From Torpedo marmorata (lineage: Eukaryota), in the NCBI GenBank assembly GCA_977017645.1, contig OZ360243.1, forward strand, positions 28,086,001 to 28,150,000: a stretch of 64,000 bases of DNA, given 5' to 3'. A program made the position numbers and the translations under genes. This document shows positions 480 to 63,670 of this stretch, piece after piece (the stretch's first letter is position 1; each line of letters starts with the position of its first letter). Below the pieces are notes generated by a model, which was not told the origin of the DNA, ran no database searches, and was given only the letters and a program-made list of their open reading frames with translations.

Positions 480-530
480 GAACAGAAACAACATCGTTGA
501 CAACTCCCTCAACAATAAGTTCCACAACAG
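480..530 (+). CDS. Exon type A, first copy (51 nt): (G)TETTSLTTPSTISSTT
   Basis: Polypyrimidine tract ctctctctccag ends at 479; donor CAG|GTGAGT at 531; phase-1 reading is Thr/Ser-rich and stop-free. Confidence 0.85.
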
Positions 531-3500
531 GTGAGTACATATACTTTTAATATGTTGACACAAATGATCCTTTACTACAAAAACACATGACATGCACAGC
601 TCATTCTTTTATTTGTTCAACAACATGCTCCTTTCCTGTGGCCAGGCAACAGCAAACAAATTCACATTTGAAAAACAGCCCAATATATATGCTAGACAAA
701 TACCGGTATATATTCCCTGAGCCCAATCTATATGCGAGACAAATAAATGTCTGAATAGCAGCATGATCACATGTTCAAGACAAGGAAATAACATGGGGAA
801 CTGGATTAAATCATTCTCTCAGCACACAGGATTCACAAATGTCCAGGAAGAGAGTCAAAATTGATATGATACAAGGACATGGCATCTTTCGGCTGTTCAA
901 TAAGAGGTTGCAAGAATGAGAGCATACCAGTCTGTTTCCGTCCTTCCACAAATATTTCCAAAAATACACAATTCTCCACATGCATTCATTTCCACAAATA
1001 TAGGTGAATTTCAATGTTAAATTGTACAAAAACATTCTGACATTTTGCACATGAGATGCTCATGATTTCCAAATAACATGGAGAAGATGAGGAGATGACA
1101 GTGTTACAAACATAGGATACAACTTCTGATATTTCCAACTATAACCAGATTCTGGATGCCAAATATTTTTAATTAGCATGGTTTAAACTATAATTTTGCA
1201 TTTATCGTTATTTTGGTCCCATTTTCATTGGCTCCACATTTAATCGCATTGAAATGAGCATGGAGCGGTTGTTAACACTTTACTTCTCTTTCATAAGAAA
1301 CAACTGGAAGGAGCACAACTGGCACCACACAGACGACAGCCAGTTCCACAACAGGTGGGTGATCATGTCTTTCAATGGCCTTTGTTGAGATTCTCAACAA
1401 CGTGTCTCCTTCAATTTAACGTCCATTACATCTTGGCGACCCTCTGTCTGCCTTACAATAGACAAAAATTAAAGAATTTCATGTATGTTACATTTTAAAT
1501 GTAGTATTACGTGACAATAATAGAACCTTTACCCCGTAAACAGGGTTGCTTTAATTTCAACCTGTAACAAGTGCAAATGCAATTCCTCCTTGTTAAATTC
1601 AAAAGAAGTCGCTGATGACCTTCAGCAGGGGCGGCATGGTTAGCGTAGCAGTTAGCGCAACGCATCTTACAGCGCCAGCAACCCGTGTTCCAATACGGCA
1701 CTCTCCGTAAGGAGTTTGTACGATCTCCCCCTGTCTGCGTGTGCTTCATCTGGGTGTTCCGTTTCCTTCTAACGCTTCAAATCGTTCCGGGGTTCTAGTT
1801 CAATTGGGTGTAATTCGGCTCCACGGATTCGTGGGCCGAATTGTCCTGTAACCATGCTGTATGTCTAAATTTAAATTTGTAAGTTTAAAAATTATGCGAA
1901 CTGAGAAGTCGTCTTCTGATCTTCATTGTTCTCCTTACTTTCATGAGGAGTAACCACCTCAGCAAAGAGCATTGCTAAATCTCACAAATAATCGTGTTGG
2001 ACGATTTTAATCCTGGAATCAAAAATAAATTTAGGAGTCAGATTTTTTGCAAAGGGAAGACCCATTCTTTTATTTCTCCAGCTCCTGTGACTGATAATTT
2101 TTCAACAGATGTACAATTGCTTCCCTCTTCAGGTACATTTGTTGATAGTTTAGCTCCAAAAATTTACATCACACTGAGGGAAATGAGGACAGTTTCTGAA
2201 CATAGGAGAGGCCTTTTGGATCCAATTGCGCTGACTTTTATCATAACCAGGATGAGGCTTGTCACCTTTCAGTTGACATGGATTTGAATGCATTGAACCA
2301 GTGCTTTTATAGGAAAACTCACAAAATTTTATCGTCTGAACACTTCAACCAACTCTATTGCTGTTTGGTAAAGGCAAGATTATTGAACATAGAAAGGTCC
2401 GAGAAGTATACTAATTGGGAAAGGATTGATTAAATTAAATCTTTGGTGTTTCAACTGCTGCACCTCAATATGTCAAACTCAGTCACGGCAGCAGTCTGTA
2501 AGATTAATCCTCTTCTCCATCTATTCACTTTCGCACTTCCACCTGTCAAAAAATTATCACAGCAGATTTGGACAAAAACATTAAGCGAAAAGTTGAATAA
2601 TCTCATGCATCATATGCTTTGCCAACAGTATGTAGGTGATCAAAATGTCAGTGTTTGAGTTGAAGCAAAAATCCAGCAAATTCCAAATATGCTCTGGTTT
2701 TGCATGATGTTTGAAGATTTGAAACATTTGCAAAGGTCTCCTTAAAATTATTGACTCGTACCAATTAGATCACCAAGTCATGCTATTCAAGTTGCATTTT
2801 GCCACTATTAATGCATTTGCTCTCTCTCTCCAGGAACAGAAACAACATCGTTGACAACTCCCACAGCAATAAGTTCCACAACAGGTGAGTACATGTGCTT
2901 TTAATATGTTGACACAAATGTCCCTTTACTGCAAAAACACATGAAATGCACAGATGAATCTTTTGTTTTTCCAACAACCTGCTACTTTGATGTGGCCAGG
3001 CAACAGCAAACAAGATAAATCTTCCATCAGCACAAAATATATGCGAGACAAATTAAGGCTGTGAATAATAGCGTGATAACATGTTCAAGACAAGGAAATA
3101 TCATGGGGAACTGGATTAAATCATTCTCTCAGCACACAGCAGACACACACATGTCCAAGAAGAGAGTCAAAATTGATTTGATGCAGGAAAATGGCATTTT
3201 TCGGATATTCAATAAGAGGTTGCAAAAATGGGAACACACCCGTCTGTTTTCGTCTGTCCACATGTAATTCCAAAAATTCCGAATTCTCAACATGCATTCA
3301 TTTCCACACATATAGGTGAATTTCAATGTCGAATTGTACAAAAACATTCTGACATTTTTCACTTTTGAAGCTCATGATTTCCAAATAACATGGACAAGAA
3401 TGGGATAAGACAGTGTTACAGGCACAAGATACAACTTCTGATATTTTCAACCATAACCAGATTCGGGAGGCCAAATATTTTTAATTAGCATGGTTTAAAC

Positions 3501-6500
3501 TATATTTTTGCATCTATCATCATTTCTGTCCCAGTTACATTGGCTCCACGTTTAATCGCATTGAAAGGTGCATGGAGCGGTTGTTAACACTCTCTTTCTC
3601 TTTCACAAGAAACAACTGGAACGAGCACAACTGGCACCACACAGACGACAGCCAGTTCCACAACAGGTGAGTGATCATGTCTTTTAATGGCTTTTGTCGA
3701 GATTCTCAACACAACACGTCTCCTTCAGTTTCGCATCCAGTACATCCCCGTCAACAGGGTTGCTTTAATTTCAACCTGTAAAAAGTGCAAGTGATATTCC
3801 TCCTTGTTAAATTCAAAAGAAGTCGCTGATGAACTTCAGCAAGAGCGGCATGATTAGCGTAGCAGCGCAACGCTGTTACAGTGCCAGCGACCCGTGTTCG
3901 AATAGGGCACTCTCTGCAAGGAGTTTGTACTATCTCCCCGTGTATTTTGTCACTATTCATGCATTTGTTCTCTCTCTCCAGGAACAGAAACAACATCCTT
4001 GACAACTCCCTCAACCATAAGTTCCACATCAGGTGAGTACATATCCTTTCACTAAGTTGACACAAATGTTCCTTTAATGCAAATACACATGACATGCACA
4101 GCTCATTCTTTTGTTTGTCCAACAACATGGTCCTTTCCTGTGGCAAGGCAACAGCAAACAAATTCACATTTGAAAACCAGTTAAATCTTCCCTCAGCCCA
4201 ATATTTATGCAAGACAAATAAATGTCTGTGAATAACAGCCTGATAACATGTTCAAGACAAGGAAATAACATGGGGAACTGGATTAAATCATTCTCTCAGC
4301 ACACAGCAGACACACACATGTCCAAGAAGATAGTCAAAATTGATTTGATGCAGGAAAATGGCATTTTTCGGATATTCAATAAGAGGTTGCAAAAATGGGA
4401 ACACACCCGTCTGTTTTCGTTTGTCCACATGTAATTCCAAAAATTCCGAATTCTCAACATGCATTCATTTCCACACATATAGCTGAATTTCAATGTCGAA
4501 TTGTTCAAAAAAGTTCTGACATTTTGCACTTTTGAAGCTCATGATTTCCAAATAACATGGAGAAGATGAGGAATGACAGTGTTACAGACACAGGATACAA
4601 CTTCTGATATTTTCAACTACAACCAGATTCGGGAGGCCAAATATTTTTAATTAGCATGGTTTAAACTATATTTTTGCATCTATTATCATTTCTGTCCCAG
4701 TTTCATTGGCTCCACGTTTAATCGCATTGAAAGGAGCTTGGTGTGGTTGTTAACACTCTCCTTCTCTTTCAAAAGAAACAACTGGAACGAGCACAACTGG
4801 CACCACACAGAAGACAGCCAGTTCCACAACAGGTGGGTGATCATGTCTTTCAATGGCTTTTGTCGAGATTCTGATCAACACGTCTCCTTCAGTTTCACAT
4901 CCATTACATCCCCGTAAACAGGGTTGCTTTAATTTCAACCTGTAACAAGTGCAAATGCAATTCCTCCTTGTTAAATTCAAAAGAAGTCGCTGATGACCTT
5001 CAGCAGAGGCGGCATGATTAGCGTAACAGTTAGCGCAACGCTCTTACAGCGCCATCGAACCGTGTTCCAATACGGCACTCTCTGCAAGGAGTTTGTACGA
5101 TCTCCCCGTGTATTTTGTCACTATTCATGCATTTGTTCTCTCTCTCCAGGAACAGAAACAACATCCTTGACAACTCCCTCAACCATAAGTTCCACAACAG
5201 GTGAGTACATATCCTTTCACTAAGTTGACACAAATGTTCCTTTACTGCAAATACACATGACATGCACAGCTCATTCTTTTGTTTGTCCAACAACATGTTC
5301 CTTTCCTGTGGCCAGGCAACAGCAAACAAATTCACATTTGAAAACCAGTTAAATCTTCCCTCAGCCCAATATTTATGCAAGACAAATAAATGTCTGTGAA
5401 TAACAGCCTGATAACATGTTCAAGACAAGGAAATAACATGGGGATCTGGATTAAATCATTCTCTCAGCACACTGGATTCACACATGTCCAGGAAGAGAGA
5501 CAAAATTGATTTGAGACAAGGAGATGGCATCTTTGGGCTGTTTAATAAGAGGTTGAAAGAATGGAGCACACCAGCCTATTTTCGTCTGTCCACATGTCAT
5601 TCCAAAAATTCAGAATTCTCCACATGCATTCATTACCACACATGCAGGTGAATTTCAATGTTGAATTGTACCAAAACATTCTGACATTTTGCACATAAGA
5701 AGCTCATGATTTCCAAATAACATGGAGAAGATGGGGAATGACAGTGTTACAGCGCAGGATTCAACTTCTGATATTTCCAACTACAACCAGATTCGGGATG
5801 TCAAATATTTTAATTAGCATGGTTTAAACTATATTTTTGCATCTATCATCATTTCTGTCCCAGTTTCATTGGCTCCACATTTAATCGCATTGAAAGGAGC
5901 ATGGTGTGGTTGTTAACACTCTCCTTCTCTTTCAAAAGAAACAACTGGAACGAGCACAACTGGCACCACACAGACGACAGCCAGTTCGACAACAGGTGAG
6001 TGATCATGTCTTTCAATGGCTTTTGTCGAGATTCTCAACACAACTCGTCTCCTTCAGTTTCGCATCCAGTACATCCCCGTAAACAGGTTTGCTTTAATTT
6101 CAACCTGTAACAAGTGCAAGTGCAATTCCTCCTTGTTAAATTCAAAAGAAGTCGCTGATGACCTTCAGCAGGGGCGGCATGGTTAGCGTAACAGTTAGCG
6201 CAACGCTCTTACAGCGCCATCGAACCGTGTTCCAATACGGCACTCTCTGCAAGGAGTTTGTACGATCTCCCCGTGTATTTTGTCAATATTCATGCATTTG
6301 TTTTCTCTCTCCAGGAACAGAAACAACATCCTTGACAACTCCCTCAACCATAAGTTCCACAACAGGTGAGTACATATCCTTTCACTAAGTTGACACAAAT
6401 GTTCCTTTACTGCAAATACACATGACATGCACAGCTCATTCTTTTGTTTGTCCAACAACATGCTCCTTTCCTGTGGCCAGGCAACAGCAAACAAATTCAC

Positions 6501-9500
6501 ATTTGAAAACCAGTTAAATCTGCCCTCAGCCCAATATTTATGCAAGACAAATAAATGTCTGTGAATAACAGCCTGATAACATGTTCAAGAGAAGGAAATA
6601 ACATGGCGAACTGGATTAAATCATTCTGCCTTCACACATGTCCAGGAAGAGAGTCAAAATTGATTAGAGACAAGGAGATGGCATCTTTCGGCTGTTTAAT
6701 AAGAGGTTGAAAGAATGGAGAACACCAGCCTATTTTCGTCTGTCCACATGATATTCCAACAATTCCAAATTCTCAACATGCTTTAATTTCCACACAAAGA
6801 AGTGAATTTCAAAGTCGAATTGTACAAAAACATTCTGACATTTTGCACTTTTGAAGCTCATGATTTCCAAATAACATGGACAAGAATGGGATAAGACAGT
6901 GTTACAGGCACAAGATACAACTTCTGATATTTTCAACCATAACCAGATTCGGGAGGCCAAATATTTTTAATTAGCATGGTTTAAACTATATTTTTGCATC
7001 TATCATCATTTCTGTCCCAGTTACATTGTCTCCACGTTTAATCGCATTGAAAGGTGCATGGAGCGGTCGTTAACACTCTCTTTCTCTTTCACAAGAAACA
7101 ACTGGAACGAGCACAACTGGCACCACACAGACGACAGCCAGTTCCACAACAGGTGAGTGATCATGTCTTTTAATGGCTTTTGTCGAGATTCTACACACTA
7201 CACGTCTCCTTCAGTTTCGCATCCATTACATCCCCGTCAACAGGGTTGCTTTAATTTCAACCTGTAACAAGTGCAAGTGATATTCCTCCTTGTTAAATTC
7301 AAAAGAAGTCGCTGATGAACTTCAGCAAGAGCGGCATGATTAGCGTAGCAGCGCAACGCTGTTACAGTGCCAGCGACCCGTGTTCGAATAGGGCACTCTC
7401 TGCAAGGAGTTTGTACTATCTCCCCGTGTATTTTGTCACTATTCATGCATTTGTTCTCTCTCTCCAGGAACAGAAACAACATCCTTGACAACTCCCTCAA
7501 CCATAAGTTCCACATCAGGTGAGTACATATCCTTTCACTAAGTTGACACAAATGTTCCTTTAATGCAAATACACATGACATGCACAGCTCATTCTTTTGT
7601 TTGTCCAACAACATGGTCCTTTCCTGTGGCAAGGCAACAGCAAACAAATTCACATTTGAAAACCAGTTAAATCTTCCCTCAGCCCAATATTTATGCAAGA
7701 CAAATAAATGTCTGTGAATAACAGCCTGATAACATGTTCAAGACAAGGAAATAACATGGGGAACTGGATTAAATCATTCTCTCAGCACACAGCAGACACA
7801 CACATGTCCAAGAAGATAGTCAAAATTGATTTGATGCAGGAAAATGGCATTTTTCGGATATTCAATAAGAGGTTGCAAAAATGGGAACACACCCGTCTGT
7901 TTTCGTTTGTCCACATGTAATTCCAAAAATTCCGAATTCTCAACATGCATTCATTTCCACACATATAGCTGAATTTCAATGTCGAATTGTTCAAAAAAGT
8001 TCTGACATTTTGCACTTTTGAAGCTCATGATTTCCAAATAACATGGAGAAGATGAGGAATGACAGTGTTACAGGCACAGGATACAACTTCTGATATTTTC
8101 AACTACAACCAGATTCGGGAGGCCAAATATTTTTAATTAGCATGGTTTAAACTATATTTTTGCATCTATTATCATTTCTGTCCCAGTTTCATTGGCTCCA
8201 CGTTTAATCGCATTGAAAGGAGCTTGGTGCGGTTGTTAACACTCTCCTTCTCTTTCAAAAGAAACAACTGGAACGAGCACAACTGGCACCACACAGACGA
8301 CAGCCAGTTCCACAACAGGTGGGTGATCATGTCTTTCAATGGCTTTTGTCGAGATTCTGATCAACACGTCTCCTTCAGTTTCACATCCATTACATCCCCG
8401 TAAACAGGGTTGCTTTAATTTCAACCTGTAACAAGTGCAAATGCAATTCCTCCTTGTTAAATTCAAAAGAAGTCGCTGATGACCTTCAGCAGAGGCGGCA
8501 TGATTAGCGTAACAGTTAGCGCAACGCTCTTACAGCGCCATCGAACCGTGTTCCAATACGGCACTCTCTGCAAGGAGTTTGTACGATCTCCCCGTGTATT
8601 TTGTCACTATTCATGCATTTGTTCTCTCTCTCCAGGAACAGAAACAACATCCTTGACAACTCCCTCAACCATAAGTTCCACAACAGGTGAGTACATATCC
8701 TTTCAATAAGTTGACACAAATGTTCCTTTACTGCAAATACACATGACATGCACAGCTCATTCTTTTGTTTGTCCAACAACATGTTCCTTTCCTGTGGCCA
8801 GGCAACAGCAAACAAATTCACATTTGAAAACCAGTTAAATCTTCCCTCAGCCCAATATTTATGCAAGACAAATAAATGTCTGTGAATAACAGCCTGATAA
8901 CATGTTCAAGACAAGGAAATAACATGGGGATCTGGATTAAATCATTCTCTCAGCACACAGGATTCACACATGTCCAGGAAGAGAGTCCAAATTGATTTGA
9001 GACAAGGAGATGGCATCTTTCGGCTGTTTAATAAGAGGTTGAAAGAATGGGAGCACACCAGCCAATTTTCGTCTGTCCACATGTCATTCCAAAAATTCCG
9101 AATTCTCAACATGCATACATTTCCACACATGCAGGTGAATTTCAATGTTGTATTGTACAAAAACATTCTGAAATTTTGCACATAAGAAGCTCATGATTTC
9201 CAAATAACATGGAGAAGATGGGGAATGACAGTGTTACAGCACAGGATTCAACTTCTGATATTTCAGAATCAGAATCAGAATCAGAATCAGAATTTATTGT
9301 CATGAACAAGTCATGAAATTCGGTGCTTTGCGGCAGCATCATAGTGCAATTAACATTCATATTAACCATTCTAACGACATTACTATATAAAAATTATAAA
9401 CAATAGTGCACTAGTGTCTTTGGTTCATTGATTGTTCAGGAATCTGATGGCAGCGGGGAAGAAGTTGACCTTGTGCCGTTGAGTGCTCGTCTTTAGGCTC

Positions 9501-12500
9501 CTGTACCTTTTCCCCGATGGAAGCAGCGTGAAGAGGGCATGGCCTGGGTGGTGGGGGTCCTTGAGGATAGAGGCTGCTTTATTAAGACATCGCCTCATGT
9601 AGATGTCCTCGATGGAGTGAAGTTTGGTGCCCGTGATGTCACAAGCCGAGGTAACAACCTTCTGGAGTTTGCACTTGTCCTGGGAGTTGGCACCACCATA
9701 CCAGGCAGTGATGCAACCAGCTAGAATGCTCTCCACGGTACACCTGTAGAAGTTCACAAGAGTCTTTGGCGACATACCGAATCTCCGCAATCGCCTCACA
9801 AAGTATAGCCGCTGACGAGCCTTCTTTGTGATTGCATCCACGTGGATGCTCCAGGACAGATCCTCGGAGATGTTGACACCCAGGAATTTGACGTTCTTGA
9901 CCCTCTCCACGACTGAGCCCTCGATGAGGACTGGGTTGTGTTCCCCTGACTTCCTCCTGAAGTCCACAATCATCTCCTTGGTTTTAACTACAACCAGATT
10001 CTGGATGTCAAATATTTTAATTAGCATGGTTTAAACTATAATTTTGCATCTATCATCATTTGTGTCCCATTTATATTGGCTCCACATGTAATCACATTGA
10101 AAGGAGCTTGGTGTGGTTGTTAACACTCTCCTTCTCTTTCACAAGAAACAACTGGAACGAGCACAACTGGCACCACACAGACAACAGCCAGTTCGACAAC
10201 AGGTGGGTGATCATGTCTTTCAATGGCTTTTGTCCAGATTCTGATCAACACATCTCCTTCAGTTTCACATCCATTACATCCCCGTAAACAGGGTTGCTTT
10301 AATTTTCACCTGCAACAAGTGCAAATTCAATTGCTCCTTGTTAAATTCAAAAGAAGTCGCTGATGAACTTCAGCAAGAGCGGCATGATTAGCGTAGCAGC
10401 GCAACGCTGTTACAGCGCCAGCGACCTGTGTTCGAATAGGGCACTCTCTGCAAGGAGTTTGTACGATCTCCCCGTGTATTTTGTCACTATTCATGCATTT
10501 GTTCTCTCTCTCCAGGAACAGAAACAACATCCTTGACAACTCCCTCAACCATAAGTTCCACATCAGGTGAGTACATATCCTTTCACTAAGATGACACAAA
10601 TGTTCCTTTACTGCAAATACACATGACATGCACAGCTCATTCTTTTGTTTGTCCAACAACATGCTCCTTTCCTGTGGCCAGGCAACAGCAAACAAATCCA
10701 CATTTGAAAACCAGTTAAATCTTCCCTCAGCCCAATATTTATGCAAGACAAATAAATGTCTGTGAATAACAGCCTGATAACAAGTTCAAGACAAGGAAAT
10801 AACATGGAGAACTGGATTAAATCATTCTCTCAGCACACTGGATTCATACATGTCCAGGAAGAGAGTCAAAATTGATTTGAGACAAGGAGATGGCATCTTT
10901 CGGCTGTTTAATAAGAGGTTGAAAGAATGGGAGCACACCAGCCTATTTTCGTCTGTCCACATGTCATTCCAAAAATTCAGAATTCTCCACATGCATTCAT
11001 TTCCACACATGCAGGTGAATTTCAATGTTGAATTGTACCAAAACATTCTGAAATTTTGCACATAAGAAGCTCATAATTTCCAAATAACATGGAGAAGATG
11101 GGGAATGACAGTGTTACAGCACAGGATTCAACTTCTGATATTTCCAACTACAAGCAGATTCTGGATGTCAAATATTTTAATAAGCATGGTTTAAACTATA
11201 ATTTTGCATCAATCATCATTTCTGTCCCAGTTTCATTGGCTCCACATTTAATCGCATTGAAAGGAGCATGGTGTGGTTGTTAACACTCTCCTTCTCTTTC
11301 ACAAGAAACAACTGGAACGAGCACAACTGGCACCACACAGACGACAGTCAGTTCCACAACAGGTGAGTGATCATGTCTTTCAATGGCTTTTGTCGAGATT
11401 CTCAACACAACACGTCTCCTTCAGTTTCGCCTCCAGTACATCCCCGTCAACAGGGTTGCTTTAATTTTCACCTGCAACAAGTGCAAATTCAATTGCTCCT
11501 TGTTAAATTCAAAAGAATTCGCTGATGAACTTCAGCAAGAGCGGCATGATTAGCGTAGCAGCGCAACGCTGTTACAGCGCCAGTGACCTGTGTTCCAATA
11601 GGGCACACTCTGCAAGGAGATTGTACGATCTCCCCGTGTATTTTGTCACTATTCATGCATTTGTTTTCTCTCTCCAGGAACAGAAACAACATCCTTGACA
11701 ACTCCCTCAACCATAAGTTCCACAACAGGTGAGTACATATCCTTTCAATAAGTTAACACAAATGTTCCTTTACTGCAAATACACATGACATGCACAGCTC
11801 ATTCTTTTGTTTGTCCAACAACATGCTCCTTTCCTGTGGCCAGGCAACAGCAAACAAATTCACATTTGAAAACCAGTTAAATCTTCCCTCAGCCCAATAT
11901 TTATGCAAGACAAATTATTGTCTGTGAATAACAGCCTGATAACATGTTCAAGACAAGCAAGTAACATGGGGAACTGGATTAAATCATTCTCTCAGCATAC
12001 AGGATTCACACATGTCCAGGAAGAGAGTCAAAATTGAATTGAGACGAGGAGGTGGCATCTTTCGGCTGTTTAATAAGAGGTTGAAAGAATGGAGCACACC
12101 AGCCTATTTTCGTCTGTCCACATGTAATTCCAAAAATTCCGAATTCTCAACATGCATTCATTTCCACACATATAGGTGAATTTCAATGTCGAATAGTACA
12201 AAAACATTCTGACATTTTTGCACTTTTGAAGCTCATGATTTCCAAATAACATGGACAAGAATGGGATAAGACAGTGCTACAGGCACAAGATACAACTTCT
12301 GATATTTTCAACCATAACCAGATTCGGGAGGCCAAATATTTTTAATTAGCATGGTTTAAACTATATTTTTGCATCTATCATCATTTCTGTCCCAGTTACA
12401 TTGGCTCCACGTTTAATCGCATTGAAAGGTGCATGGAGCGGTTGTTAACACTCTCTTTCTCTTTCACAAGAAACAACTGGAACGAGCACAACTGGCACCA

Positions 12501-26961: not shown

Positions 26962-26995
<34 letters not shown>

Positions 26996-56900: not shown

Positions 56901-59900
56901 CCCGTGTTCGAATAGGGCACTTTCTGCAAGGAGTTTGTACGATCTCCCCGTGTATTTTGTCACGATTCATGCATTTGTTCTCTCTCTCCAGGAACAGAAA
57001 CAACATCCTTGACAACTCCCTCAACCATAAGTTCCACATCAGGTGAGTACATATCCTTTCAATAAGTTGACACAAATGTTCCTTTACTGCAAATACACAT
57101 GACATGCACAGCTCATTCTTTTGTTTGTCCAACAACATGATCCTTTCCTGTGGCCAGGCAACAGCAAACAAATTCACATTTGAAAACCAGTTATTTTAAT
57201 TGGGGGGGGATTTTAATTGTTGTCTGGATTCAATAATGGATAGGACTTCTAGATCGTTAGTTAGGCCTAAAATAGTTAAAAGAATTATAAATTTGATGAA
57301 AGATTTGAATTTAATAGATATTTGGAGGAAATTGAATCCTCGAGAGAAAGATTATTCCTTTTATTCTTTTAGACATGATTCATACTCTAGGATAGATTTG
57401 TTTTTAATATCTTCACAAATTCAAGATAGAATATCACAGGTATCATATAAAGCGAGAATAATTTCAGATCATTCACCTTTGTTAATGACATGTATTATTC
57501 CAGAAAAGGAGAAAACTATATTTAATTGGAGATTTGATTCTTCTTTATTGAAAAGGACAGATTTTTGTGAATATATGAGAAGGGAAATTCAAGAATTTTT
57601 GAGGATAAATGATCAATCAATTAATGATAAATTTATAATTTGGGAAACTTTAAAGGCTTATCTTAGAGGTTTGATAATATGTTATTCGGCAAAAATTAAA
57701 AAAGATTATTTGAAAGAAGCAGAAAAATTAGAGAAAGAGATTGAGATTATGGAAAAAGATTTACAGAGAAATAAATCAATTCGTAAGAGAAATTGTTTAA
57801 TGAGGAAAAAGTTACATTATAATTTATTACAAACGTATAAAACGGAAAAATTAATAGAAAGAATGAAACAAAGATATTATGAATTAGGAGAAAAGGCTCA
57901 TAAAGTTTTAGCATGGCAATTGAAAAAGGAACAAGTTTCTAAAACTATAAATGCTATAAAGAAAAAAAATACTGGTGAAATAACTTATAAACCCCAAGAA
58001 ATAAATGAATCTTTTAAAGATTATTATCAGAATTCATATAGATCTCAAGTTGTTCAGGATGATTTGAAAATTAATAGATTCTTATCTAGAATTATTTTAC
58101 CTAAATTAAATACTCAGAATAAAAATTTTTTAGATTTACCTTTTATGATGAGAGAAGTTAATGAAGTATTATCGACGTTAAAAAGTGGTAAATCCCCTGG
58201 TGATGATGGATTTCCAGTAGAATTTTATAAAGAATTTAAAGATTTATTGATACCTCTATATATGGAAGTATTAAATCAGATTACGGAAACTCATTTATTA
58301 CCAAAAACTTTTTTGAATGCTATTATTACAGTTATACCAAAGAAAGATAGAGATGTATTAAAAACGGAGTCATATAGACCTATTTCTTTATTAAATGTAG
58401 ATTATAAGATTATGGCAAAAATTTTGGCTAATAGAATAGCTAAATATTTACCAAATTTGATACATCCAGATCAAGCTGGTTTTATTAAAAATAGATATTC
58501 TAAAGATAATATAGCTAGATTATTAAGTTTAATTAATTTTCATAAAAAGAAACAAGATTTACCATTGGTGGTAACGTTGGATGCAGAAAAGGCTTTTGAT
58601 AGATTAGAATGGAATTTTTTATTTAAGGTGTTAGAGAAATTTGGTTTTGGGAATACTTTTATAAATTGGATTAAAACTATATATAAGGAACCTTCAGCTA
58701 AAGTAATTACAAATGGACAAATATCGTCAAAATTTTCTTTAACGCGTTCTACAAGACAGGGTTGTCCTTTATCACCAGCTTTATTTGTTTTGGCAATAGA
58801 ACCTTTAGCTGAATTGATTAGGACAGATCCTAATATAGTAGGGATTAAAGTCGGTATGGAAGAGCATAAGATTAGTTTGTTTGCAAATGATGTACTAATA
58901 TATATGACAAAATCAGTTTTATCACTTCAACATTTAGCTATTATATTAACAGAATATGGTGAAATATCTGGATATAAAATTAATGCGGATAAAAGTGAAA
59001 TAATGGCTTTATCTCAAGGTGATTATACTAGATGTAAAGAAGTTACGGAATTTAAGTGGGCAAAAGAAGGAATTAAATATTTGGGAGTAAAAGTGGATAC
59101 AAAATTAGAAAATTTATATAAATTAAATTATATACCCTTATTTACGAAAATAAAGAAAGATTTGGAAAATTGGAAAGATTTACCTATAACTTTAATGGGG
59201 AGAGTAAATTGTATTAAGATGAATATTTTTCCAAGAATTCAATATCTTTTTCAATCAATTCCTTTTGGAATTCCAAAAAATTTTTTTAAAGATTTAAAAT
59301 TTATAGTTAGGAAATTTTTATGGAAAGAGAAGTTAGCAAGAGTGAGTATGGAGAAGTTAACATGGAATTATGAGATGGGAGGAATGCAACTCCCTAATTT
59401 TCAATATTATTATAAAGCAGCTCAATTAAAATTTGTTAATGAATTTTTTGATTTAGCTAAAACTTCTGCTTGGATTAATATAGAATTAAATAATATAGGA
59501 GAAAATTATAAAGAGGATATTATTTATAAGTGGAACTCTAAATTATTATCAGTAAAAAAGAAAAATTCACCGATTATTAAACATTTATTGGAAGTATGGA
59601 CACAGGTAGATAAAGAAATAGGTGGGAAAGGAATAATTTCTTTAAATATGCCATTATATCAAAATCCACTTTTATTATTTACTATGAATAATCAGTTATT
59701 GAAAACATGGTTTCAAAAAGGTATTAAAAATTTTAAAGATTGTTTTGAAGCTGGAAGATTTGTTACGTTTCAAAGATTGAAAGAAAAATTTGATATATTA
59801 GATAATACATGGTTAGCTTATTATCAGGTTAAAGCTTTTTTGGTTGAGGAATTAGGAGAAAATTTGATTGCTCCAAGGTATAATGAGTTAGAATTACTAA

Positions 59901-62900
59901 TTACTAAAGCAAATGTTAATAAGTTTATTTCTCAAATGTATAAATTATTTCAGAGAAAAATACCTAAAGTAGGATTACATAAATCAAGATTAAAATGGGA
60001 ATTAGATTTAAATATTAATATAGCTCAAAAACATTGGGAAGATTTATGTAAATTATGTATGACTAAAGTTATTAATGTTAGATATAGATTAGTACAATAT
60101 AATTTTTTCCATCAATTATATTTAACACCAAAAAATTAAAGAAATTTAATCCGACATTATCAGATTTGTGTTTTAGATGTAAGAATGAAGTAGGTTCATT
60201 TGTTCATTCTACATGGTTATGTCCAAAGATTCAATATTTTTGGCTTAAAGTTAAGAATTTTTTAGAGAGAGTTTTTAATGTTAGGTTTCCAATGGATCCT
60301 ATGTTATTTCTATTGGAGATATTAGAAAATTTAGTATTAGGAATAGATTGAATATGTATCAGGTAGAATTTTTGCGTATTGCTTTAGCTGTTTCAAAAAA
60401 ATGTATTGCTATTACTTGGAAATCAGATTTAGATTTGAATTTAGATAGAAGGCATGCAGAACTTCGTTCGTGTATTCCTTTGGAAAAAATTACTTATAAT
60501 TTACGTAATAAATATCATTCATTTTTTTAAATTTGGAGCCCATATATGAGTTATGGGTTTGAGGATTTGAAATTTTTTGAAATCAGATCTATTGGCGAGT
60601 TTAACCTCCAGATTAAAATTGGTTTTCAGATGGTTCTCTCCTCACTATTAATCTCTTTTTCTTTTCCTTTTTTCTTTTTCTATTTTTAGAATAGTGGGGT
60701 TGGGGGGGTTGGGGAGGGGTGGGAGGGTGCGGGGGGAGGAAATTTATATCACTGTATTTTGGAAACTATATACCGTATAAGTCGACCGGCAGATAAGTCG
60801 ACCCCCCTTTTTCAGCCTCATTTTAATGGTTTTATGGTATATCTGGCGTATAAGTCGACCCCCAAAAATCGCGATGCCTGAGATGTTGCGCATTGACCGG
60901 CGTATAAGTCGACCCCCAATTTTCAGGCTGTCTGGGCCTCCCAGCAACAACCCAAAATTTGTTACAACATTCCAATCGCCAAGTAACAAAGCTGTAAATT
61001 AAGCAAGTACCGGTAAGTAAAAAAAAAACAGTAAAAAAAAACCTTTGCTTCTGGCCGGGAAGATGCAGGTGCGGCGACGTCTTTCTCCTGAGCAGTAGCG
61101 GGGAGCTCGTTCTCCCGAGCAGTAGCGGGGACTCATTCTCCCGAGCAGGAGCGGGGGCGTCTTTCTCCCGAGCAGGAGCGGGGAGCTCGTTCTCCCGGGC
61201 AGGTGCGGGGACTCGTTCTCCCGGGCAGGAGCGGGGACTCGTTCTCCCGGGCAGGAGCGGGGAGCTCGTTCTCCCGAGCAGGAGCGGGGAGCTCGTTCTC
61301 CCGAGCAGGAGCGGGGAGCTCGTTCTCCCGAGCAGGAGTGGGGAGCTCGTTCTCCCGAGCAGGAGCGGGGACGTCGTTTTCCCAGGTAGGAGTGGGGAGC
61401 TCGTTCTCACGAGCAGGAGCGGGGACGTCTTTCTTCCGAGCAGGAGCGAGGAGCTCATTCTCCCGGGTAGGAGCGGGGACCTCGGGCTCTACAATTGTAG
61501 AATGTCTGGGAGGTTTATGGCGGCGCCCGGCGGTGGGGAAGTGTCGGGGAGCGGCGGCGCCGGCAGTGGGGAGGCGCTTCCAGGGTCGACCTATACGCCG
61601 AATCGTGTTTTCAGGGGTCGACTTATACGCCGAATCGTGTTTTCAGGGGTCGACTTATACGCCGAATCGGCGTGAACTCGATTTTGAGCTGATTTTAAGG
61701 TCTCAAAAGTATATCTGGCGTATAAGTCGACCCCCGTTTTTTGAGACATTTTTGAGGGTTTCAAGGGTCGACTTATACGCCGAAATATACGGTATTTTAA
61801 ATTATGTATTATGTGATTTAAAAAATTTAAATAAAATAATTAAAAAAAAGAAAACCAGTTAAATCTTCCCTCAGCCCAATATTTATGCGAGACAAATAAA
61901 GGCTGTGAATAATAGTGCAATGACATGTTCAAGACAAGGAAATAACATGGGGAACTGGATTAAATCATTCTCTCAGCACACAGCAGGCACACACATGTCC
62001 AAGAAGATAGTCAAAATTGATTTGATGCAAGAAAATGGCATTTTTCGGATATTCAATAAGAGATTGCAAAAATGGGAACACACCCGTCTGTTTTCGTTTG
62101 TCCACATGTAATTCCAAAAATTCCGAATTCTCAACATGCATTAATTTCCACACATATAGGTGAATTTCAATGTCGAATTGTACAAAAACAATCTGAAATT
62201 TTGCACATAAGAAGCTCATGATTTCCAAATAACATGGAGAAGATGGGGAATGACAGTGTTACAGACACAGGATACAACTTCTGATATTTTCAACCATAAC
62301 CAGATTCGGGAGGCCAAATATTTTAATTAGCATGGTTTAAACTATATTTTTGCATCTATCATCATTTCTGTCCCAGTTTCATTGGCTCCACATTTAATCG
62401 CATTGAAAGGAGCATGGTGTGTTTGTTAACACTCTCCTTCTCTTTCACAAGAAACAACTGGAACGAGCACAACTGGCACCACACAGACAACAGTCAGTTC
62501 CACAACAGGTGAGTGATCATGTCTTTCAATGGCTTTTGTCGAGATTCTCAACACAACACGTCTCCTTCAGTTTCGCATCCAGTACATCCCTGTCAACAGG
62601 GTTGCTTTAATTTTCACCTGAAACAAGTGCAAATTCAATTGCTCCTTGTTAAATTCAAAAGAAGTCGCTGATGAACTTCAGCAAGAGCGGCATGATTAGC
62701 GTAGCAGCGCAACGCTGTTCCAGCGACAGTGACCTGTGTTCCAATAGGGCACTCTCTGCAAGGAGTTTGTACGATCTTCCCGTGTATTTTGTCACTATTC
62801 ATGCATTTGTTCTCTCTCTCCAGGAACAGAAACAACATCGTTGACAACTCCCTCAACCATAAGTTCCACAACAGGTGAGTACATATCCTTTCAATAAGTT

Positions 62901-63670
62901 GACACAAATGTTCCTTCACTGCAAATACACATGACATGCACAACTCATTCTTTTGTTTGTCCAAAACATGCTCCTTTCCTGTGGCCAGGCAACAGCAAAC
63001 AAATTCACATTTGAAAACCAGTTAAATCTTCCCTCAGCCCAATATTTATGCAAGACAAATAAATGTCTGTGAATAACAGGCTGATAACATGTTCAAGGCA
63101 AGGAAATAACATGGTGAGCTGGAATAAATCATTCTCTCAGCACACAGGATTCACACATGTCCAGGAAGAGAGTCAAAATTGACTTGATACAAGAAAATGG
63201 CATCTTTCAGCTGTTTAATAAGAGGTTGCAAAAATGGGAACACACCCGTCTGTTTTCTTTTGTCCACATGTAATTCCAAAAATTTTTAATTCTCAACATG
63301 CATTCATTTCCACACATGCAGGTGAATTTCAATGTCGAATTGTACAAAAACATTCTGAAATTTTGCACATAAGAAGCTCATGATTTCCAAATAACCTGGA
63401 GAAGATGGGGAATGACAGTGTTACAGCACAGGATTCAACTTCTGATATTTCCAACTACAACCAGTTTCGGGAGGCCAAATATTTTTAATTAGCATGGTTT
63501 AAACTATAATTTTGCATCAATCATCATTTCTGTCCCAGTTTCATTGGCTCCACGTTTAATCGCATTGAAAGGAGCATGGTGTGGTTGTTAACACTCTCCT
63601 TCTCTTTCACAAGAAACAACTGGAACGAGCACAACTGGCACCACACAGACGACAGCCAGTTCCACAACAG
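480..63670 (+). CDS. Internal part of a multi-exon mucin-like (Thr/Ser-rich) gene: 91 short phase-1 exons encoding a 36-aa tandem repeat; N- and C-termini outside the window
   Basis: Manual reading. Exon A (51 nt, ctctctccag|GAACAG...CCACA(A/T)CAG|gtgagt) starts at 480, 2834, 3982, 5150, 6315, 7468, 8636, 10516, 11678, 12843, 14008, 15161, 16324, 17488, 18650, 19815, 20980, 22133, 23297, 28022, 29187, 30352, 31505, 32669, 33833, 36112, 38387, 39549, 40715, 41878, 43042, 44203, 45369, 46532, 47696, 48857, 50024, 51181, 52345, 53509, 54673, 55832, 56992, 62824. Exon B (57 nt, ttctctttca(c/a)aag|AAACAAC...CAACAG|gtg(a/g)gt) starts at 1298, 3610, 4776, 5939, 7096, 8262, 10146, 11306, 12471, 13632, 14789, 15950, 17116, 18278, 19443, 20604, 21761, 22923, 27650, 28815, 29976, 31133, 32295, 33461, 34625, 35736, 36900, 38011, 39175, 40341, 41504, 42670, 43829, 44995, 46158, 47324, 48483, 49653, 50810, 51972, 53138, 54299, 55460, 56622, 62452, 63614. 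Exon C is at 2082. All lengths are multiples of 3 and phase 1-1; I saw no stops or indels in these exons, while the introns have many indels. No transcript evidence is available here. Confidence 0.85.
1298..1354 (+). CDS. Exon type B, first copy (57 nt): (E)TTGRSTTGTTQTTASSTT
   Basis: Acceptor ttacttctctttcataag ends at 1297; donor CAG|GTGGGT at 1355; phase 1-1. Confidence 0.8.
1433..1531 (+). mobile_element. ~100-bp insertion, probably the extreme 3' end of a 5'-truncated LINE
   Basis: Other units read cattacatc-cccgtaaacaggg contiguously; here ~99 bp intervene, ending gtgacaataatagaaccttta(cc), which resembles a LINE 3' tail. Family not determinable. Confidence 0.5.
1628..1893 (+). mobile_element. 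Full-length tRNA-derived SINE of the V-SINE/HE1 type
   Basis: tRNA-like head ggcggcatggttagcgtagcagttagcgcaacg with a degenerate B-box (gttccaatac); V-domain-like core ggagtttgtacgatctccccctgtctgcgtgtgcttcatctgggtgttccgtttcc; CR1/HER1-like tail gggccgaattgtcctgtaaccatgctgtatgtctaaat followed by AT-rich short repeats. Family recognised from memory, not by database search. Confidence 0.8.
2082..2132 (+). CDS. Exon type C (51 nt, single copy in window): (A)PVTDNFSTDVQLLPSS, with an N-F-S sequon
   Basis: Strong acceptor cattcttttatttctccag ends at 2081; donor CAG|GTACAT at 2133; same phase as A and B and same length as A. Confidence 0.65.
3843..3943 (+). mobile_element. 5' half of the same SINE, present once in each short unit (representative copy)
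   Basis: gagcggcatgattagcgtagcagcgcaacg...ggagtttgtactatctccccgtgt, then an abrupt switch to the pre-exon-A intron sequence attttgtcactattcatgcattt. Confidence 0.8.
9263..9985 (-). mobile_element. 5'-truncated Rex1/Babar-type (CR1 group) non-LTR retrotransposon fragment
   Basis: Minus-strand ORF with KTKEMIVDFRR, FLGVNISEDLSW, QRLYFVRRLRRF, LLPSGKRYRS and FFPAAIRFLN, the post-RT C-terminal region typical of Rex1-like LINEs. Stop at 9425, then 3' UTR, AATAAA (9293-9298, minus strand) and a (TTCTGA)5 tail at 9263-9292. The flanks rejoin as ...ctgatatttc|aactacaacc; no clear TSD. Confidence 0.85.
23449..26999 (+). mobile_element. 5'-truncated L1-clade LINE with poly(A) tail and 12-bp TSD (AACATGCTCCTT at 23437-23448 and 27000-27011)
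   Basis: AT-rich ORF2, G-rich 3' UTR tract (26849-26886), AATAAA at 26955, ~30-nt poly(A) tail and TSD; the empty site is visible in paralogous units near 16465 and 32810. Confidence 0.95.
23451..26672 (+). CDS. L1 ORF2 (C-terminal end of APE endonuclease, reverse transcriptase, Cys-rich knuckle); uninterrupted but 5'-truncated
   Basis: The frame is open upstream of the annotated Met (KDYSFYSFRHNSFSRIDLF...IISDHSPLL). Motifs include KSPGDDG, YRPISLLNVDYK, LDAEKAFD, RQGCPLSP, FADD (24981-24992) and CFRC-x8-HCTWSC. Confidence 0.9.
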   Translation, partial: KDYSFYSFRHNSFSRIDLFLLSSQIQDRITQISYKARIISDHSPLLMTCIIPEKEKTVYNWRLDSSLLNRKDFCDYMRKEIQEFLRINNNSVDDKFIIWESLKAYLRGLIISFSAKIRKDYLKEEEKLEGEIEVMEKNFQRNKTILKRQRLMGKKLHYNILQTRKIEKLIGRTKQRYYELGERAHKVLAWQLKKEQVSKTINAIKKSNGDITYKPQEINNSFKEYYQNLYTSQMSQDVVKIDDFLSKIMLPKLNSSNRDLLDLPITMREVGEALSSLNSGKSPGDDGFPVEFYKKFKDLLIPIYMEVLTQIKETQLLPKTFLNAVITVIPKKDRDVLKTESYRPISLLNVDYKLMAKILTNRLAKFLPFLIHSDQAGFIKNRYSKDNIARLISLINLQKKKQDLPLVIALDAEKAFDRLEWKFLFKVLEKYGFGNTFINWIKTIYKEPTAKVITNGQISSKFSLTRSTRQGCPLSPALFVLAIEPLAEMIRKDMTIKGIKVGTEEHKISLFADDVLIYMTKSIESLQQLDKILRDYGEISGYKINSDKSEIMALSQGDYTKCKEVTKFKWAKEAIKYLGVKVDTKLENLYKLNYIPLFQKIKKDLDNWKDLPITLIGRVNCIKMNIFPRVQYLFQSIPFSIPQKFFKDLKSIIRKFLWKGKLARVSMDKLTWEYEMGGLQLPNFQYYYKAAQLKFINELFDLTKNTAWINIELNNIGERNKEDIIYKWNSKLLLIKKKKSPIIRHLLEIWNQLDNEIGRKGSISLNMPLYQNLLLPFSMDNQFLKVWHQKGIKKIKDCFEAGRFVTFSRLKEKFGIMDNTILAYYQVKGFLVEKLGNQLISPRQDGLELLITNGNVNKFISQMYKLFQKKIPKVGLHKSRLNWESDLNTNIDEQHWKELCKLSMTKIINVRYRLVQYNFFHQLYITPKRLKKFNPALSDMCFRCKDKIGSFVHCTWSCLKIKNFWSKVKDFLDRIFNIMIPLDPMIFLFGDIKRISIRNRLNMYQIEFLRIVLAISKKCIAITWKSDLDLNLDRLHAELRSCIPLEKITYNLRDKYHFFLKIWSPYMRIMGMN
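34981..34999 (+). pseudogene. Deleted exon A remnant (~54-bp deletion), copy 1
   Basis: Reads tgttct-acaacag-gtgagt; the acceptor and the first ~44 nt of exon A are missing. Confidence 0.85.
37256..37274 (+). pseudogene. Deleted exon A remnant, copy 2 (duplicated at 2,275-bp offset)
   Basis: Identical junction tgttctacaacaggtgagt. Confidence 0.85.
57200..60530 (+). pseudogene. Disrupted L1 ORF2
   Basis: The RT catalytic motif reads FAND (58880-58891) instead of FADD. Frameshifts near 60135 and 60310 split the C-terminus into ORFs 57200..60139, 60166..60351 and 60348..60530, with an early stop at 60530. Confidence 0.88.
60773..61792. mobile_element. Non-autonomous Tc1/mariner-superfamily (Tc2/pogo-like) MITE with TA target duplication, nested in the L1 3' UTR
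   Basis: TA|CCGTAT...ATACGG|TA termini; repeated subterminal motif GGCGTATAAGTCGACC (forward at ~60774, 60792, 60846, 60899, 61717; reverse at ~61584, 61616, 61648, 61766); no transposase. Removing it restores collinearity with the 3' UTR of the first L1. Confidence 0.85.
61080..61481. repeat. GC-rich ~27-bp minisatellite (gagcaggagcggggagctcgttctccc), about 15 copies, inside the MITE
   Basis: Read directly; it produces the repetitive ORFs 60832..61458(-) and 61203..61862(+). Confidence 0.9.
63614..63670 (+). CDS. Exon type B, last copy in the window: (E)TTGTSTTGTTQTTASSTT
   Basis: Acceptor tctctttcacaag ends at 63613; donor CAG|GTGGGT at 63671. Confidence 0.8.

What the first reader, a model, noticed from the sequence alone, without database searches (positions are those of the whole stretch)
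480..63670. Exon copies show a coding-selection signature: no indels or stops, mostly synonymous or Thr-Ser changes
Seen: exon variants include synonymous TCC/TCG, ACT/ACA, ACG/ACA and TCA/TCC changes; Thr-to-Ser swaps (terminal ACA>TCA in many A exons; ACC>AGC near 34651 and 36924; ACT>TCT near 42690 and 51204; ACA>TCA near 53188); Ala>Val and Ser>Ala; and rare T>K (~4811), T>R (~1309) and L>F (~48875). Introns carry many small indels, and the AG/GT dinucleotides are retained in the copies I read. Inference: selection maintains the frame and the O-glycosylation density.
Basis: partly seen in the sequence, partly recalled or inferred. Interest (0 to 1): 0.7.

Follow-up and report, generated by a model that had tools for sequence, protein, structure and literature searches.

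The report
Selection guards ray mucin's repeated exons
The window holds 90 tiny, near-identical exons of a mucus-protein gene, likely of a ray; they carry far fewer serine/threonine-losing changes than their introns predict, likely because selection keeps the predicted sugar-attachment residues, a known behaviour of mucins that is unusually easy to measure here.

Summary
Mostly confirmed, and ordinary. The window is the middle of a MUC19/spiggin-clade gel-forming mucin gene, likely of a ray. It holds 46 exon-intron units with 51- and 57-nt phase-1 exons. Contigs from two public studies (guessed to be RNA) join these exons; one removes the predicted GT-AG intron exactly.

All listed variants are real. 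Distinct exon substitutions number 18, against about 47 expected from the introns. Ser/Thr-losing changes are 4 vs 19; Thr-Ser swaps 6 vs 3.7. Eight flanking units repeat this (2 vs 13; synonymous 10 vs 8.8).

Corrections:
- 'No indels, AG kept' fails for 2 of 46 A copies, where a 54-nt deletion removes the acceptor and most of the exon. Skipping the remnant would keep the frame.
- No stops (0 vs 1.4 expected) is uninformative.
- Window-only dN/dS (0.76) is not significant.
- Non-Ser/Thr residues are constrained too, so glycan density is inferred, not shown.

Ser/Thr retention (MUC7, Muc10) and exon-by-exon mucin repeats (chicken Muc13, SmPoMuc) are published, and this scan noted the layout in other shark and ray mucins.

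The parts
480..63670 (+). 90 intact PTS exons of one gel-forming mucin gene: 44 type A (51 nt) and 46 type B (57 nt), all phase 1-1, in 46 tandem exon-intron units of about 1,163 nt; the array continues to about window -9,740 and +77,160
   Evidence: joined with the flanking unique exons they give one stop-free frame (108 exons, 2,079 aa; PTS part 1,903 aa, 71.7% Ser+Thr)
5150..5200 (+). example exon A (TETTSLTTPSTISSTT); CAG acceptor, GTGAGT donor; an in-frame second AG lies 6 nt inside
   Evidence: joined to exon B in contigs
5201..5938 (+). A-B intron, removed exactly (GT..AG, 738 nt) in a contig of run X1
   Evidence: tables 5 and 8
5939..5995 (+). example exon B (TTGTSTTGTTQTTASSTT); AAG acceptor in all 46 window copies; donor GTGAGT or GTGGGT
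   Evidence: B-to-A joint in contigs of X1 and X5
34987..34993 (+). 7-nt remnant of an exon A after a 54-nt deletion of acceptor plus exon; donor kept
37262..37268 (+). second copy of the same deleted exon A (unit identical to the first)
2082..2132 (+). exon-shaped 51-nt element C (AG..GT, weak donor GTACAT), in the long units at the array edges; evolves at the intron rate, stop codon in 2 of 9 copies; likely a dead exon, used as negative control
9264..9981 (-). retroposon-like insertion in an A-B intron (LINE 3' end; type recalled, not tested)
23449..26995 (+). 5'-truncated LINE with poly(A) and target duplication in an A-B intron; 1,073-aa open frame with reverse transcriptase
57194..61849 (+). 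second LINE of the same family (84% identical) with a nested inverted-repeat element, in an A-B intron

Best explanation
The 90 short exons carry about 2.5 times fewer substitutions than their introns, with Ser/Thr-losing changes about five times rarer than expected, likely because purifying selection acts on the predicted sugar-coated core of a MUC19-type mucus protein. Shown: the exons lie between the D1-D2-D'-D3 and the CysD-VWD-cystine-knot exons of a gel-forming mucin gene, join into one open frame and are joined to each other in public contigs. Shown: the units are multiplied and mixed by tandem duplication and recombination (blocks of 2-6 units recopied, four-gamete incompatibility 21-38%). 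Inferred: this turnover spreads any new variant into several copies, and selection removes haplotypes in which Ser/Thr-losing or frameshifting variants spread; Thr<->Ser swaps and most synonymous changes pass at about the neutral rate. Inferred: because every exon is phase 1-1 and a multiple of three, the cheap way to change the array is to lose, gain or trim whole exons (deletion, splice-site loss, acceptor shifts of 3 or 6 nt), and those events are tolerated. Inferred, from mucin biology: the selected property is a dense run of O-glycosylation sites.
For: Window: Ser/Thr-losing 4 vs 18.95 expected (P=4e-5); Thr<->Ser 6 vs 3.7; 6 of 10 changes at Ser/Thr codons keep Ser/Thr vs 16% expected (P=0.002). 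Holds without the two edge units (2 vs 15.1), with near-exon introns as baseline (4 vs 19.0), with a trinucleotide model (4 vs 19.4) and in each exon alone (A 1 vs 8.6; B 3 vs 10.7). New variants in 8 flanking units: synonymous 10 vs 8.8, Ser/Thr-losing 2 vs 13.2, dN/dS-like ratio 0.28 (P=0.009). Pooled 54 units: 16 vs 20.6, 6 vs 29.6, ratio 0.47 (P=0.02). The deficit grows with copy number: window singletons 3 vs 8.3, >=2 copies 1 vs 10.9, >=4 copies 0 vs 7.1. Diversity: introns 0.066, codon positions 1-2 0.020 (P=0.00015), four-fold sites 0.040 (P=0.15). Control: element C 18 variants in 51 sites vs 0.28-0.35 per site around it, 2 of 9 copies with a stop. Joints: A-to-B at GT..AG and B-to-A in X1; B-to-A in X5; in organism B the exons are 45, 48 and 57 nt by record coordinates, all multiples of three. 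Gene identity.
Against: Counts are small (18 variants in the window, 35 pooled) and variants are not fully independent. In the window synonymous changes are also low (6 vs 12.9, P=0.03; singletons 1 vs 5.4), so dN/dS is 0.76 and Ser/Thr loss vs synonymous is not significant there (P=0.18). Non-Ser/Thr residues are depleted about as much (2 vs 9.8), so glycan density is not singled out; Thr<->Ser is a conservative change in any protein. In organism B exon B differs from the window by 9-11 letters in 55-63, no less than its intron pieces (5-26 in 57-138); only exon A is clearly more conserved (1-3 in 49). The runs are only guessed to be RNA, are short contigs, and do not show which of the 90 copies are used. 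No glycosylation was measured.
Confidence: 0.82

Rival explanations
1. The exons are constrained as nucleotide sequence, to be recognised by the spliceosome (short exons, a weak AAG acceptor on B, possible exonic enhancers); the amino-acid pattern is a by-product.
For: Synonymous changes are half the expected number in the window (6 vs 12.9; B alone 2 vs 6.3) and all 46 B copies use an AAG acceptor. The drop in diversity starts at the exon borders.
Against: Synonymous changes run at the neutral rate in the flanks (10 vs 8.8) and near it pooled (16 vs 20.6, P=0.18), while Ser/Thr loss stays at 0.2; Thr<->Ser changes, which alter the same nucleotides, are not depleted (8 vs 6.1). It may add to, but cannot replace, selection on the protein.
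Confidence: 0.1
2. No selection: the exons look clean because of mutation bias in ACA-rich sequence, gene conversion centred on the exons, recent duplication or assembly collapse.
For: Many units are near-identical recent copies (46 units collapse to 33 at 0.5%) and the array is mosaic. Nine of 29 frameshift-sized intron indels lie in slippery runs that the exons largely lack.
Against: Counting each distinct variant once removes the copy effect; base-, CpG- and trinucleotide-specific rates give the same deficit; intron bins next to the exons vary at the normal rate; homogenisation cannot tell Thr>Ser from Thr>Ile (0 seen, 3.6 expected); element C shows no deficit.
Confidence: 0.05
3. General purifying selection on the repeat's amino-acid sequence (spacing, protease resistance, enzyme recognition sites), with no special role for glycan density.
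For: Changes at Gly, Glu, Leu, Pro, Ile, Gln and Ala are depleted too (2 vs 9.8; pooled 5 vs 14.6).
Against: Only Thr<->Ser escapes the deficit as a class; Ser/Thr make up 72% of the domain. Too few Ser>Ala, Ser>Asn or Thr>Ala changes exist to test equally conservative alternatives. This rival overlaps with the best explanation and differs only in the selected trait.
Confidence: 0.25

Closest known systems
MUC7 and lineage-specific mucins Muc10 / Muc2-like (Xu et al. 2016, PMC4997351; Pajic et al. 2022, PMC9417175; passages read)
   Same: Repeat units stay in frame, and changes at Thr/Ser are rarer than expected from synonymous change; read as selection for O-glycosylation.
   Different: MUC7's repeats are subexonic and both studies compare against synonymous change. 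Here each repeat is its own exon, so co-duplicated introns and a dead exon give a neutral baseline inside one genome. In Muc10/Muc2-like, non-Thr/Ser residues were reported as neutral; here they are depleted too.
Chicken Muc13 (Lang et al. 2006, PMC1552070; passages read)
   Same: PTS domain encoded by many near-identical exons, one repeat per exon; length variation by splicing proposed.
   Different: Membrane mucin with at least 12 repeats of 20 aa; the passages read hold no selection test. Here a secreted MUC19-clade mucin with 104 repeat exons of two alternating types.
Schistosoma SmPoMuc exon-2 repeats (Roger et al. 2008, PMC2576457; passages read)
   Same: About 1-kb exon-plus-intron units in tandem, more than 93% identical, under concerted evolution, with purifying selection invoked for the exons.
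   Different: Unrelated gene family of an invertebrate, up to about 20 repeats. The paper describes introns as more homogenised than exons for spider silk genes; here the introns are the more variable part.
MUC19 / spiggin clade of gel-forming mucins (Lang et al. 2016, PMC4948705; Kawahara and Nishida 2007, PMC2180178; passages read)
   Same: The D3 region groups with rat and horse mucin-19 and bichir MUC19 (support 1.0); nearest named proteins are ray and shark models (73% to Hypanus sabinus XP_059842765).
   Different: Has a fourth VWD (as some spiggins do, unlike mammalian MUC19) and a CysD domain, which the paper lists as typical of MUC2/MUC5. Human MUC19's central repeat exon is described as uninterrupted in the longest isoform (PMC13345508, passage).

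Membership tests
Gel-forming mucin | Three N-terminal VWD-C8-TIL units | tested here: met
   tblastn of P0006 covers residues 12-1182 in order at window -41.5 to -14 kb; Pfam VWD and C8 over cut-off
Gel-forming mucin | Central PTS domain rich in Ser/Thr | tested here: met
   1,903 aa, 71.7% Ser+Thr, Pro only 2.6%, stop-free with the flanking exons
Gel-forming mucin | C-terminal cystine knot | tested here: inconclusive
   Two exons match the C-termini of relatives and Pfam Cys_knot at E 0.025 and 0.003, each below the cut-off as single exons
Gel-forming mucin | Signal peptide, secretion, O-glycosylation, polymer formation | not testable with these tools
   The signal exon was not mapped in detail; no protein data
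MUC19/spiggin clade | D-domain phylogeny groups with MUC19, apart from MUC2/5/6 | tested here: met
   FastTree of 90 D3 sequences, clade support 1.0; 14 of the tree's proteins with a clade-relevant name were checked
MUC19/spiggin clade | Synteny with LRRK2 (recalled) | tested here: inconclusive
   One COR-domain match, on another contig (C68), not assigned to LRRK1 or LRRK2; the search sees single exons only
Mammalian-type MUC19 architecture | No fourth VWD domain | tested here: not met
   VWD4 present at L013:3398 (Pfam E 2e-13) and CysD at L013:1564 (E 6.5e-14); fits the spiggin-like branch, not the mammalian layout
Multi-exon PTS domain (Muc13/SmPoMuc type) | Each repeat is a symmetric exon, spliced in transcripts | tested here: met
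   All phase 1-1 and multiples of three; exon-exon joints in contigs of two studies, the GT..AG intron skipped exactly in X1; RNA status of the runs is a guess
Multi-exon PTS domain (Muc13/SmPoMuc type) | Regulated or variable exon skipping | not testable with these tools
   Only short contigs; no long reads
Coding sequence under purifying selection | dN/dS below 1 | tested here: met
   Pooled 0.47 (P=0.02) and flanks 0.28 (P=0.009); window alone 0.76, not significant

The most novel reading that the evidence does not exclude
Selection sees the loss of a single hydroxyl residue among about 1,360 in this domain (pooled single-copy Ser/Thr-losing variants 5 vs 16 expected), yet tolerates losing a whole 17-residue exon. 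If so, the selected trait is an unbroken glycan coat (one bare spot would let a protease cut the whole polymer) rather than glycan number, and the exon-per-repeat layout lets damaged repeats be dropped by killing their splice sites. Intron-containing shark and ray mucin arrays would then be a natural set of experiments on what constrains mucin repeats.
Probability: 0.15. Interest if true: 0.6.

Novelty: new member of a known kind. Interest (0 to 1): 0.3.

Why it matters
Mucin repeats are hard to test for selection because they usually sit in one exon with no neutral reference. Here each repeat is copied together with about 1 kb of intron, so one genome gives both test and control. The result confirms that the 'satellite' is a working gene and shows what is kept (frame, Ser/Thr) and what is free (copy number, whole exons, Thr vs Ser). 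The principle is published; the value is a clean measurement and a correct annotation.

Tried and rejected
A fuzzy regular-expression search timed out and was replaced by splice-pattern scanning and intron-anchored BLAST. The exon-pattern scan finds only intact exons and was not used for the 'no indels' claim; the intron-anchored alignment found the two deleted copies. A 7th 'synonymous' variant was the deletion junction and was dropped. In the flanks, one G>R plus one G>G call are a single Gly>Ser codon change, and one G>E call lies outside a shifted exon; they were left in the counts, and removing them does not change the result (synonymous 9 instead of 10). The 'E>*' call in the two dead A copies is the lost donor, not a stop. 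Two dead flanking A copies were left out of the main pooled count; with them the ratio is 0.53. Indel counts include a few alignment and excision artefacts, hence the merged count. The word-index protein search with one exon found nothing. The run search reported no RNA holder listed on record. Laying contigs on the 5' edge was swamped by SINE copies and listed no mucin exon joint. Intron stretches without contig cover were not used as evidence. LRRK2 synteny was inconclusive. Zhu et al. 2011 on human MUC19 is not held. A recursive-splice-site reading of the deletion remnant (CAG directly before GTGAGT) was considered and left untested. Three literature searches for an exon-versus-intron selection test in a fish mucin array listed no such paper; subscription journals are largely not covered, and no supplements were read.
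Full report
What the window is. The window lies at G000:C57:28086001-28150000 of a 6.2-Gb genome. It is a tandem array of about 1,163-nt units, each with a 51-nt exon A, an intron, a 57-nt exon B and a second intron. Anchoring on intron sequence gives 46 units, interrupted by three retroelement insertions, all in A-B introns. I fetched 100 kb on each side. Upstream lie the exons of three VWD-C8-TIL units; downstream lie CysD, a fourth VWD and likely cystine-knot exons. Joining all 104 A/B exons that have AG and GT with four flanking unique exons gives a stop-free frame of 2,079 aa; its PTS part is 1,903 aa and 71.7% Ser+Thr. In a tree of 90 D3 regions the gene groups with rat, horse and bichir MUC19 (support 1.0), apart from named MUC5AC and MUC6; its nearest named relatives are ray and shark models. 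The organism is therefore likely a ray (inference).

Are the exons real? No listed run is on record as RNA. Laid on window 5110-6085, a 138-nt contig of run X1 reads A-B-A, removes the 738-nt intron at GT..AG and differs by 2 letters. Contigs of a second study (X2, X3, X5; another organism) also join the exons, with a 45-nt A and 48- or 57-nt B by record coordinates. All these lengths are multiples of three. The contigs cannot tell which copies are used.

Checking the observation. All named variants are present within 3 nt. There are 18 distinct exon substitutions: 6 synonymous, 6 Thr<->Ser, 4 Ser/Thr-losing, 2 other. Ninety exons keep AG, GT, length and frame. Two of 46 A copies do not: one 54-nt deletion, duplicated once, removes the acceptor and 44 exon bases. 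Beyond the window two more A copies lost the donor, one lost its first acceptor and one B is truncated. So 'no indels, splice sites kept' holds only for exons that survive. Skipping a lost exon would keep the frame because all exons are phase 1-1.

Each distinct variant was counted once, which removes the effect of recent copies (46 units collapse to 33 at 0.5%). Expected numbers come from intron rates by base and CpG state (433 variants in 1,013 sites). Window: total 18 vs 46.8; Ser/Thr-losing 4 vs 19.0 (P=4e-5); Thr<->Ser 6 vs 3.7; other non-synonymous 2 vs 9.8 (P=0.003); synonymous 6 vs 12.9 (P=0.03); stops 0 vs 1.4 (P=0.24). No 108-site intron window is as clean as the exons (minimum 27). 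The Ser/Thr result holds without edge units, with near-exon baselines, with trinucleotide rates and in each exon alone. Against it: dN/dS in the window is 0.76 and not significant. Variants new to 8 flanking units give an out-of-sample check: synonymous 10 vs 8.8, Ser/Thr-losing 2 vs 13.2, ratio 0.28 (P=0.009). Pooled: 16 vs 20.6, 6 vs 29.6, ratio 0.47 (P=0.02). Ser/Thr-losing variants are scarcer the more copies carry them (3 vs 8.3, 1 vs 10.9, 0 vs 7.1 for 1, >=2 and >=4 copies). Frameshifts: 0 vs 2.7-3.5 in the window (P=0.03-0.07), 0 vs 4.2-5.7 pooled (P=0.003-0.015). An exon-shaped element C in the edge units varies at the intron rate and has stops in 2 of 9 copies, so exon shape alone does not produce the signature. 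Between organisms, exon A differs by 1-3 letters in 49 and intron pieces by 5-26 in 57-138, but exon B differs by 9-11 in 55-63, no better than intron. P values assume independent variants and are approximate.

How it likely works. Shown: block duplications of 2-6 units, mosaic units (four-gamete incompatibility 21-38%) and more diverged edge units, the pattern expected from unequal crossing-over with conversion (established knowledge; discussed in PMC2576457). Inferred: this turnover amplifies variants; selection removes those that shift the frame or replace Ser/Thr, and lets Thr<->Ser swaps, synonymous changes, whole-exon loss and 3- or 6-nt acceptor shifts through. Inferred from mucin biology: the trait is dense O-glycosylation. 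That last step is not isolated, because other residues are constrained as well. A splicing constraint may add to it, given the low synonymous count in the central units and the AAG acceptor of exon B.

Comparison with what is known. Retention of Thr/Ser in in-frame repeats is reported for MUC7, Muc10 and Muc2-like (passages). One repeat per exon is reported for chicken Muc13 (passages), and a multi-exon PTS region for chicken MUC2 (passages). Exon-plus-intron units under concerted evolution are reported for SmPoMuc (passages). MUC19-clade paralogues in a chimaera and VWD4 in spiggins are reported by Lang et al. 2016 (passages). Earlier notes of this scan, seen after my reading was formed and not checked, describe the same layout in other shark and ray mucins, one of them 1.7 Mb upstream in this genome. 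Three searches listed no paper with an exon-versus-intron test in such an array; coverage is limited and no supplements were read.

Verdict. The signature is real and points to ordinary purifying selection on a mucin repeat. The absolute claims need the corrections above. New member of a known kind; interest 0.3.

Noticed in passing
window 34987-34993 and 37262-37268: The deletion leaves a pyrimidine run and CAG directly before the intact donor, the shape of a zero-length exon or recursive splice site. Of 11 AGs within 140 nt upstream, only one (135 nt) would give an in-frame cryptic exon.
   Followed up: partly
B acceptors; L001:262 and L001:4681: Two 5'-edge B copies have CAG followed by AAG (60 or 57 nt); the 52 other B copies with splice sites have lost the CAG (three different bases) and keep only the AAG acceptor, 3 nt downstream and in frame.
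   Followed up: partly
L002:9480, L001:1700, L001:3909-3959, L001:9556: Dead or trimmed exons at the 5' edge: two A copies without donor (one also without acceptor, one with a 3-nt insertion), one A copy with only the internal acceptor left (45 nt), one truncated B.
   Followed up: yes
window 2082-2132 and 8 flanking copies: Third exon-shaped element C, neutral and with stops in 2 of 9 copies; missing from the shorter central units.
   Followed up: yes
L012:4341-4392: A diverged 52-nt exon-like sequence after the last B, with weak splice sites and a length that would shift the frame; likely dead.
   Followed up: no
window 10456-33772 and 34937-48796: Higher-order repeats: blocks of 3, 5-6, 2 and 4 units recopied at 0-1% divergence for most units; central units are 3-5% from the majority sequence, edge units 6-14%.
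   Followed up: partly
window 23449-26995: Very young LINE: its host unit has no substitution against two sister units that lack it, and a 1,073-aa frame is still open.
   Followed up: partly
window about 60770-61795: Element with terminal inverted repeats and internal 27- and 32-nt tandem repeats, nested in the 3' end of a LINE.
   Followed up: no
B-A intron of every unit, e.g. window 5008-5110: A truncated SINE is carried along in every unit, so it predates the amplification; the central 1,163-nt unit looks derived from the longer edge unit (about 2.2-2.4 kb) by loss of about 1.1 kb including element C (SINE type recalled).
   Followed up: partly
L013:1562-1917: A CysD (Mucin2_WxxW) domain in a MUC19-clade gene; close shark and ray relatives P0004, P0006 and P0014 show similar segments.
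   Followed up: partly
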